Assembly (NCBI GenBank): GCA_964016885.1
Contig: CAXHJY010001188.1
Span: 1 to 64,000, forward strand
Source: Eledone cirrhosa
Lineage: Eukaryota
Direction of reading: 5' to 3'
Length of the DNA: 64,000 nucleotides
The notes beneath the pieces are model-generated. The model had not been told where the DNA came from, searched no databases, and was given only the letters and a program-made list of their open reading frames with translations. Below are positions 60,191-60,919 of this stretch, piece by piece. Position numbers and translations under genes: made by a program. Numbering within the stretch: position 1 is the stretch's first letter; each line of letters starts with the position of its first letter.

Positions 60191-60385
60191 ACTTTAGGCT
60201 TGTTGGTTCACCACTGGATAGAACTGGTTATTCCGTAAGGTCAATCCTGGTGTAGTATTGTGAAGATTAATCAACGCAGTGCAGTTCACCCATCTTCGTT
60301 TGTGTAGTTGGTGGTGTGAATACGGAGTTAATTATAAAAGAAATAACAGGAGGGGGGACTGGTGTAAATCCTTGAAAGGTTTATT

Positions 60386-60443
60386 ATACTATGATCATTT
60401 CAATGACCGGGTTCCATATGAATGCGGTGATATCATCAGGTAT
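60386..60443 (-). ncRNA. Type-I hammerhead ribozyme (family G, left arm of the 60333-60828 inverted repeat)
   Basis: Minus strand AUAC-CUGAUGA-helix II-GAA-AUGAUCAU-A/GUAU. Confidence 0.65.
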
Positions 60444-60717
60444 TGGAATATAACAAAGGAATATGTAAAAAGCCATGGGTCCGAAAAAGGCATGGGTCCG
60501 AGAAACCAGAGACAGAGGGGACGGCTGACCAACTAGCTTCACAGCCATCCGCCCTCAAAGTGTTGGCAACTGAAAACTATCAGTGAATATCTGGTGAGGG
60601 GGCAAAGGCTTATAACGTACTACCACCACTCTGTCTCTGGTTTCTCGGACCCATGGTTTTTCGAACCCATGTTTTTTCGGACCCATGGCTTTTTACATAC
60701 TCTTTTGTTATATTCCA

Positions 60718-60775
60718 ATACCTGATGATATCACCGGATTCATATGGAACCCGGTAATTGAAATGATCATAGTAT
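60718..60775 (+). ncRNA. Type-I hammerhead ribozyme (family G, right arm)
   Basis: AUAC-CUGAUGA-U-AUcACCGGaUUC(auaug)GAAcCCGGUaAU-U-GAA-AUGAUCAU-A/GUAU. Predicted cleavage after 60771. Confidence 0.72.
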
Positions 60776-60919
60776 AATAAACCTTTCAAGGATTTACACC
60801 AGTCCAGCCTCCTGTTATTTCATTTATATATATATATATATATAAATATATATATAAACTTATACATATATAAATATATATAAACTCATACATATATAAA
60901 TATATATATATATATATAT

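What the first reader, a model, noticed from the sequence alone, without database searches (positions are those of the whole stretch)
60333..60828. Large inverted repeat with a complete hammerhead on each strand
Seen: arms of about 185-200 bp around a 111-bp spacer. Each arm reads outward through AUAC-CUGAUGA-long helix II-GAA-AUGAUCAU-A/GUAU. Arm differences in the motif fall in helix II, not in the core, helix I or the 8-nt palindromic helix III. The U.U or C.C mismatch opening helix II recurs in families B, C and F. Inference: the best candidate here for an active ribozyme; a transcript from either strand carries one sense ribozyme and its antisense inhibitor.
Basis: partly seen in the sequence, partly recalled or inferred. 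Interest (0 to 1): 0.75.

Follow-up and report, generated by a model that had tools for sequence, protein, structure and literature searches.

The report
Penelope transposon stub with paired hammerheads
This mirror-image repeat is real but ordinary: it is one of many truncated, back-to-back insertions of a common protein-less jumping-gene family that is very likely Penelope-type, and its two self-cutting RNA motifs are inherited cargo that are predicted to be blocked here, because each one is transcribed after its own antisense copy.

Summary
The inverted repeat and both type I hammerhead (HHR) motifs are confirmed. The feature is one insertion, 60192-60828, inside a (TA)n tract. It belongs to a high-copy family (1,515 candidate matches) with a non-coding unit of about 1.87 kb that forms partial tandems. 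The 'spacer' is simply the longer arm's upstream sequence. Copies stop at two fixed 3' ends 138 nt apart, and inverted insertions pair one of each (32 of 35 here; 22 of 22 in a set that is mostly a sister family). This is the published layout of Penelope-like elements (PLEs): pseudo-LTR, inverted 5'-truncated copy and one-sided tail. The HHR is almost unchanged between the two families (57 of 58 nt), so it probably matters to the source elements. At this locus it is not a strong candidate for activity: the core mutates like its flanks, the left arm has lost a helix II pair, the catalytic fold is disfavoured, and the antisense arm is transcribed first on either strand. No autonomous partner and no RNA data were found. 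This scan reported the same layout in other genomes. Unusual: the long tail, the strict end pairing, and U·U opening helix II.

The parts
60192..60631 (-). Long arm: 5'-truncated copy of the non-coding family unit (about unit positions 1452-1886 of copy L089), ending at outer end B
   Evidence: end B is followed by a TA run in 50 of 57 terminal copies
60192..60332 (-). 138-nt 'tail' between end A and end B, present on one arm only; in tandem copies it runs on into the body of the unit
60518..60628 (-). 'Spacer': upstream family sequence belonging to the long arm, not target DNA or captured DNA
   Evidence: matches other copies continuously to 60635
60629..60631 (.). Head-to-head junction with a 3-nt microhomology (CTC/GAG)
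   Evidence: read from the sequence against other copies
60629..60828 (+). Short arm: inverted 5'-truncated copy ending at inner end A (60825-60828; ATA is shared with the target)
60718..60775 (+). Type I hammerhead: helix I AUAC 60718-21 / GUAU 60772-75, core 60722-28, helix II 60729-59 opening with U·U, GAAA 60760-63, palindrome AUGAUCAU 60763-70, predicted AUA cut after 60771
   Evidence: activity not tested
60386..60443 (-). Second hammerhead copy; one helix II G-C pair lost (60424); predicted cut after 60390
58000..60191 (.). Left flank: long TA/CA microsatellite target
60829..60920 (.). Right flank: TA microsatellite target

Best explanation
It is a single, doubly 5'-truncated, head-to-head insertion into a TA microsatellite of a high-copy non-coding repeat family that is very likely a non-autonomous Penelope-like retroelement, and the hammerheads are the family's terminal-repeat motif, predicted to be inactive at this site. 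Shown: family membership, the 1.87-kb non-coding unit, partial tandems, two fixed 3' ends, pairing of one A end with one B end, TA targets, neutral decay. Inferred: a reverse transcriptase-endonuclease supplied in trans by a GIY-YIG PLE cuts both strands of (TA)n. Each 3'-OH then primes a cDNA, one starting at site B and one at site A, 138 nt apart on the RNA. Both cDNAs stop early and are joined head to head by end-joining. The hammerhead would work in tandem source transcripts, as a dimer through the 8-nt palindrome and probably with protein help. At this locus it would be trapped in a roughly 190-bp duplex unless transcription starts inside the junction.
For: 1,515, 1,470 and 511 candidate matches for the HHR arm, the tail and the body. 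Unit of about 1.87 kb with partial tandems and no stop-to-stop frame over 87 aa in the whole L089 locus. Two fixed ends (54 A, 57 B), with TA runs at 45 of 54 and 50 of 57. Inverted pairs are A+B in 32 of 35 and 22 of 22. RT + GIY-YIG PLE families in this genome show the same layout (L136: one arm at each end). Published layout: inverted 5'-truncated copy and one-sided tail (PMC8557442; PMC3846280); two internal RT start sites bounding the tail and extension of both DNA strands (PMC11167929); opposite-strand HHR pairs 100-700 bp apart (PMC4209133). Motif paired to the other arm with P of about 0.95. Core and flank mutate alike.
Against: No autonomous element sharing this terminal repeat was found in 50 GIY-YIG loci of 10,596 candidates, nor among 30 of 76 copies followed downstream of the tail. 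There is no RT or endonuclease remnant in the unit, so the link to a PLE enzyme rests on architecture. The tail (138 nt) is much longer than the published 30-40 bp. No target-site duplication can be read in the TA tract. Of 41 junction rows, only 10 show 1-6 nt overlap, 2 are blunt and 29 show a gap; many gaps may be BLAST end-trimming, and some rows are not true junctions. Cleavage was not tested.
Confidence: 0.88

Rival explanations
1. The locus is an active, possibly host-used ribozyme switch: a bidirectional promoter in the junction makes two divergent RNAs, each with only its sense hammerhead, or read-through RNA regulates cleavage through the antisense arm.
For: Both cores are intact. 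The right-arm HHR folds like the family's. A bidirectional pLTR promoter has been suggested for Adineta PLEs (PMC3846280).
Against: The arms are 2.2% and 2.9% from the family majority, against a mean of 1.5%, and share no private variants. 88 of 100 copies have an intact core, so this is not special. The monomer catalytic fold is strongly disfavoured. There is no same-strand partner at this locus for dimer formation.
Confidence: 0.05
2. The inverted arm arises by self-priming or fold-back copying from one template (or later conversion between the arms), not by priming from both cut strands.
For: Arms of one insertion are closer to each other than to other copies (2.5 vs 3.35 and 1.65 vs 2.67 differences per 120 nt; 0 of 10,000 permutations). 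Some share private variants (8 of 52 and 9 of 39; L146 shares 5 of 5). Self-priming is the model proposed in PMC3846280.
Against: Shared variants are equally expected if both cDNAs come from one tandem transcript or one source locus, and the distance test is confounded by insertion age. Fold-back alone does not explain why one arm stops at A and the other at B in 54 of 57 pairs. Junctions fall all along the unit, not at one palindrome. This rival concerns the mechanism only; it is still a PLE.
Confidence: 0.25
3. It is a foldback or MITE-type DNA transposon whose terminal inverted repeats happen to contain hammerheads.
For: Long inverted arms, a TA target and high copy number.
Against: The outer ends are asymmetric (A vs B). 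Inner truncation points vary from copy to copy. Many copies are single-armed or in direct tandem. No repeated fixed-length element matching 60333-60828 was seen in 90 loci.
Confidence: 0.02
4. It is a non-LTR retrozyme (a tandem HHR circle replicating by rolling circle).
For: Non-coding, type I HHR, tandem copies. Retrozymes are proposed to derive from PLE pLTRs (bioRxiv 10.64898/2026.07.22.740005).
Against: Copies are 5'-truncated and end at fixed sites about 57 and 195 nt downstream of the cut site, not at the cut site. Inverted, tailed insertions dominate. Tandems seen are partial, in loci of about 3 kb. The HHR is the PLE type (short helix I, long helix II).
Confidence: 0.07

Closest known systems
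Endonuclease-bearing Penelope-like elements: partial tandem, inverted 5'-truncated pLTR, one-sided tail (PMC8557442 Fig. 2 legend; PMC3846280; passages read)
   Same: Head-to-head inverted copy, tail on one arm only, partial tandems, 5' truncation, (TA)n targets as in Neptune and Naiad
   Different: No ORF in the unit; tail is 138 nt rather than 30-40 bp; partner enzyme not identified
Metazoan PLE hammerheads (Cervera and de la Pena 2014, PMC4209133; parts 1-2 of 4 read)
   Same: Type I, 4-bp helix I, long helix II, small palindromic helix III, pairs on opposite strands 100-700 bp apart, expected dimer action and low activity
   Different: No G10.1-C11.1 pair and no bulged base at 9/10: helix II opens with U·U. 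That mismatch is known from active natural hammerheads (PMC3088659, passage)
Poseidon_Ac of the green anole (Frangieh et al. 2024, PMC11167929; parts 1-2 of 4 read)
   Same: Two RT start sites downstream of the HHR that bound the tail; AT-rich target; both strands extended in vitro; HHR needs protein and is not needed for insertion in vitro
   Different: Autonomous, with the ORF starting in stem II; short tail; here the two ends are 138 nt apart and no ORF follows
Non-autonomous PLE derivatives: MRC1-type Chlamys (PMC8557442, passage) and animal non-LTR retrozymes (bioRxiv 10.64898/2026.07.22.740005, part 1 of 5 read)
   Same: Protein-less units with pLTR-like repeats and head-to-tail copies, mobilised in trans
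   Different: Chlamys elements mostly lack canonical HHRs; retrozymes are defined as tandem arrays with an HHR in each unit, whereas this family is mostly truncated and inverted

Membership tests
Penelope-like element (EN+), insertion architecture | Partial tandems forming pLTRs | tested here: met
   20 B ends run on into the body; L065, L085, L088, L089, L090
Penelope-like element (EN+), insertion architecture | Inverted 5'-truncated copy adjacent head to head | tested here: met
   35 pairs and 22 pairs
Penelope-like element (EN+), insertion architecture | Optional tail on one end only (published length 30-40 bp) | tested here: met
   One-sided in 32 of 35 and 22 of 22 pairs, but 138 nt long
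Penelope-like element (EN+), insertion architecture | Hammerhead inside the pLTR | tested here: met
Penelope-like element (EN+), insertion architecture | AT-rich or (TA)n target | tested here: met
   45 of 54 A ends and 50 of 57 B ends
Autonomous PLE | ORF with RT and GIY-YIG endonuclease | tested here: not met
   No long ORF and no tblastn hit from 109 frames of GIY-YIG loci; filed as non-autonomous
Non-autonomous PLE | Shares its terminal module with an autonomous family | tested here: inconclusive
   Only a second non-coding family (2.36-kb unit) shares it; 50 GIY-YIG loci and 30 of 76 tail-through copies were checked
Type I hammerhead ribozyme | Core C3 U4 G5 A6 N7 G8 A9 / G12 A13 A14 A15.1 / U16.1 H17 | tested here: met
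   Both arms
Type I hammerhead ribozyme | Helices I, II and III formable | tested here: met
   Helix I 4 bp; helix II 10 of 14 positions paired (right arm) and 9 of 14 (left arm); helix III 2 bp as monomer, 8 bp as dimer
Type I hammerhead ribozyme | Canonical paired 10.1-11.1 (usually G-C) | tested here: not met
   U·U; a described tolerated variant (PMC3088659)
Type I hammerhead ribozyme | Self-cleavage | not testable with these tools
   No RNA run was listed; needs an in vitro assay
Non-LTR retrozyme | Arrays of complete HHR-to-HHR units and circular RNA | tested here: inconclusive
   Only partial tandems seen in loci of about 3 kb; no RNA data

The most novel reading that the evidence does not exclude
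Two large protein-less Penelope families (1.87 and 2.36 kb) share a U·U hammerhead plus a 138-nt tail module. Their inverted insertions almost always pair one A end with one B end (54 of 57). This would be a genomic record of a dimeric PLE enzyme priming from both cut strands at two different start sites, with the widest spacing I found reported, and it gives a ready substrate for testing how PLE inverted repeats and tails form.
Probability: 0.4. Interest if true: 0.45.

Novelty: new member of a known kind. Interest (0 to 1): 0.22.

Why it matters
The locus itself is a dead-end copy among more than a thousand. The family has modest value for PLE biology, where the origin of inverted pLTRs and tails and the role of the hammerhead are still open. 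The two ends are far enough apart (138 nt) to score without ambiguity, the A+B rule is near-absolute, and the hammerhead is conserved across two otherwise divergent non-coding families. Many such hairpins could also be a source of double-stranded RNA for editing or small-RNA silencing, which was not tested.

Tried and rejected
Rfam scan of the window: no hit. RNA evidence: no RNA holder listed. Contigs of two runs from one sample cover the repeat, but none spans the whole stretch, so they are uninformative about this junction. Search for an autonomous partner: the HHR pair next to a GIY-YIG ORF in L126 proved to be a separate sister-family insertion in a TA run; L196 has a PLE ORF on the opposite strand; tblastn found no ORF remnant in either unit. 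'Differences avoid the core' as evidence of selection: rejected (p = 0.28; core 1.08% vs flank 1.36%; the sample is biased to best-scoring copies). MITE or foldback reading: rejected. Junction microhomology tally: noisy, not relied on. The repeat finder output was swamped by the microsatellite. The Lunse et al. paper on dimeric PLE hammerheads was not available; I saw only its title and a review's summary. Literature searches for Penelope with 'twin priming' and for non-autonomous PLE hammerheads in molluscs listed nothing describing this family or the A+B rule; only listings were seen. Repbase, Dfam and the supplements of PMC4209133 and PMC8557442 were not seen and may already hold this family or motif.

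Full report
Observation. The inverted repeat is present as described. The arms align at 60333-60520 and 60626-60828 with 9 mismatches and one indel block; the strict arms leave a 111-bp middle (60518-60628). The 496-nt RNA folds at -334.5 kcal/mol, z = -34, with 0 of 100 shuffles as good. Each arm has a full type I hammerhead core reading outward (+60722, -60439), a 4-bp helix I, a long helix II opening with U·U, the palindrome AUGAUCAU and an AUA cleavage triplet. Rfam gives no hit in the window.

What it belongs to. A search of the own genome (3.0 Gb) with the right arm gave 1,515 candidates, of which 40 were scored, the best at 94-97% identity; the tail gave 1,470 and the body 511. These are lower-bound indicators, not copy numbers. 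In 90 fetched loci the family has a unit of about 1.87 kb (L089) that occurs as single 5'-truncated copies, partial tandems and head-to-head pairs. The longest stop-to-stop frame in L089 is 87 aa, and 109 frames from GIY-YIG loci find no remnant in the unit. The window copy spans 60192-60828 between TA tracts. The long arm (minus strand) covers unit positions of about 1452-1886 and the short arm about 1550-1748, with one extra short internal repeat. The 'spacer' is the long arm's extra upstream sequence, and the arms meet at a 3-nt overlap.

Two ends. Terminal copies stop at end A (54 cases) or end B, 138 nt further on (57 cases). A TA run of at least 8 nt follows in 45 of 54 and 50 of 57; 66 A sites and 20 B sites run on. 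Of 35 inverted pairs, 32 are A+B, 3 are A+A and none B+B. Two of the three A+A rows are extra matches at loci that also gave an A+B pair (L035, L045); they are left in the count. A sister family (885 candidates; 2.36-kb non-coding unit) gives 21 of 21 A+B, plus one more A+B from the main family. About half would be expected if ends were independent. Other HHR families in the genome show the same pattern by eye, with tails of about 35-45 nt (L136, an RT + GIY-YIG element) and about 66 nt (L035, L058, L130, L139); the output was partly cut.

The enzyme. GIY-YIG gave 10,596 candidates, of which 150 were scored. Six frames tested carry RVT_1 (5 of 6) and/or GIY-YIG (4 of 6), with a CX4CXXC linker read by eye that fits the Neptune/Nematis motif in PMC8557442; no tree was built. 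None of the 50 loci examined carries this family's terminal repeat as its own. The single hit, L126, is a sister-family insertion in a TA run. Thirty of 76 copies that read through the tail continue into one of the two non-coding bodies or stop. The partner is therefore unidentified.

The ribozyme. Between the two families the majority HHR is identical at 57 of 58 nt (one loop II change), against 120 of 147 in the tail and 37 of 66 upstream (Fisher p = 0.003 against all downstream sequence). The 49 nt after the HHR are also conserved (46 of 49), so the constraint may be on a larger protein-binding module. Among 100 copies the core mutates at 13 of 1200 and other positions at 148 of 10862, and 88 of 100 cores are intact: inserted copies decay neutrally. 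The window arms differ from the majority by 2.2% and 2.9% (mean 1.5%) and share no private change. The catalytic monomer fold scores -2.9 (right) and +0.8 (left) kcal/mol against minimum-energy folds of -16.8 and -13.2. An upstream AUAU can displace helix I by about 5.4 kcal/mol in both families, which may act as an off state (inference). In the full insertion the motif is paired to the other arm with mean P of about 0.95 on both strands, and the antisense arm is transcribed first on either strand (from the sequence). U·U at 10.1-11.1 recurs in at least four other HHR families here, including one sitting about 350-400 nt behind GIY-YIG ORFs. It is a described variant (PMC3088659, passage).

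Mechanism (inferred). An RT-endonuclease from another PLE cuts (TA)n. Both 3' ends prime cDNA, one at B and one at A; both stop early and are joined head to head. This follows the in vitro result that an anole PLE protein extends both strands, starts at two internal sites that bound the tail and is predicted to be a dimer, and that its HHR needs protein and is not required for insertion (PMC11167929, parts 1-2 of 4). The likeness to L1 twin priming is recalled, not checked beyond a listing. Arms of one insertion are closer than random pairs and sometimes share private variants, which fits one source transcript but also fold-back copying or conversion (PMC3846280, passages).

Comparison. An inverted 5'-truncated copy with a one-sided 30-40-bp tail is the standard EN+ PLE layout (PMC8557442, passages; PMC3846280). 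Opposite-strand hammerhead pairs 100-700 bp apart, palindromic helix III and low in vitro activity were reported in 2014 (PMC4209133, parts 1-2 of 4). Non-autonomous PLE derivatives are known (bioRxiv 10.64898/2026.07.22.740005, part 1 of 5). Earlier notes of this scan describe the same layout in other genomes (unchecked AI notes, seen after I had formed my reading); none covers this sequence or place. Supplements and repeat databases were not seen and may already hold this family.

Verdict. A real, known type of structure: a new member of a known kind. Interest 0.22, for the long tail, the strict A+B pairing and the conserved U·U hammerhead in two non-coding families.

Noticed in passing
L126:6100-6570; L171:2744-5366; L141-L173: Sister non-coding family with a 2.36-kb unit sharing the HHR, the tail and about 60 nt beyond; many 470-nt inverted stubs turn at nearly the same point about 55 nt upstream of the HHR.
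   Followed up: partly
window 8063(+), 45934(-), 28274(+), 34827(+), 28124(+)/28122(-), 37859(-), 61985(-): Further hammerhead-like motifs of several other families; the 8063/45934 family has a CCTGTTATTTC motif after its HHR, like end A here.
   Followed up: partly
L006-L085 and L100-L140 flanks: More than a dozen distinct HHR families with palindromic loop III in the sampled loci; U·U opens helix II in several, one of them with a GAAA tetraloop.
   Followed up: partly
L121:2809-5622(-), L122, L126, L129, L130, L132: A young RT + GIY-YIG PLE family, 96-99% identical in protein between copies, with open frames up to 938 aa; a candidate source of enzyme.
   Followed up: no
L136:2915-5870: A 3-kb head-to-head inverted insertion of a coding PLE, with one arm at each of its two ends.
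   Followed up: partly
window 60930-61080: A piece of another dispersed repeat that also lies beside family copies in L009, L015 and L019, suggesting shared TA targets.
   Followed up: no
L178:1555, L196:1555: Two copies stop about 57 nt beyond end B, near where homology between the two families ends; possibly a rare third end.
   Followed up: no
window 6787-7146(-) and 62859-63311(-): By eye, a LINE-like reverse transcriptase fragment and a stretch resembling 28S rDNA (resemblances recalled, no call; Rfam gave no hit).
   Followed up: no
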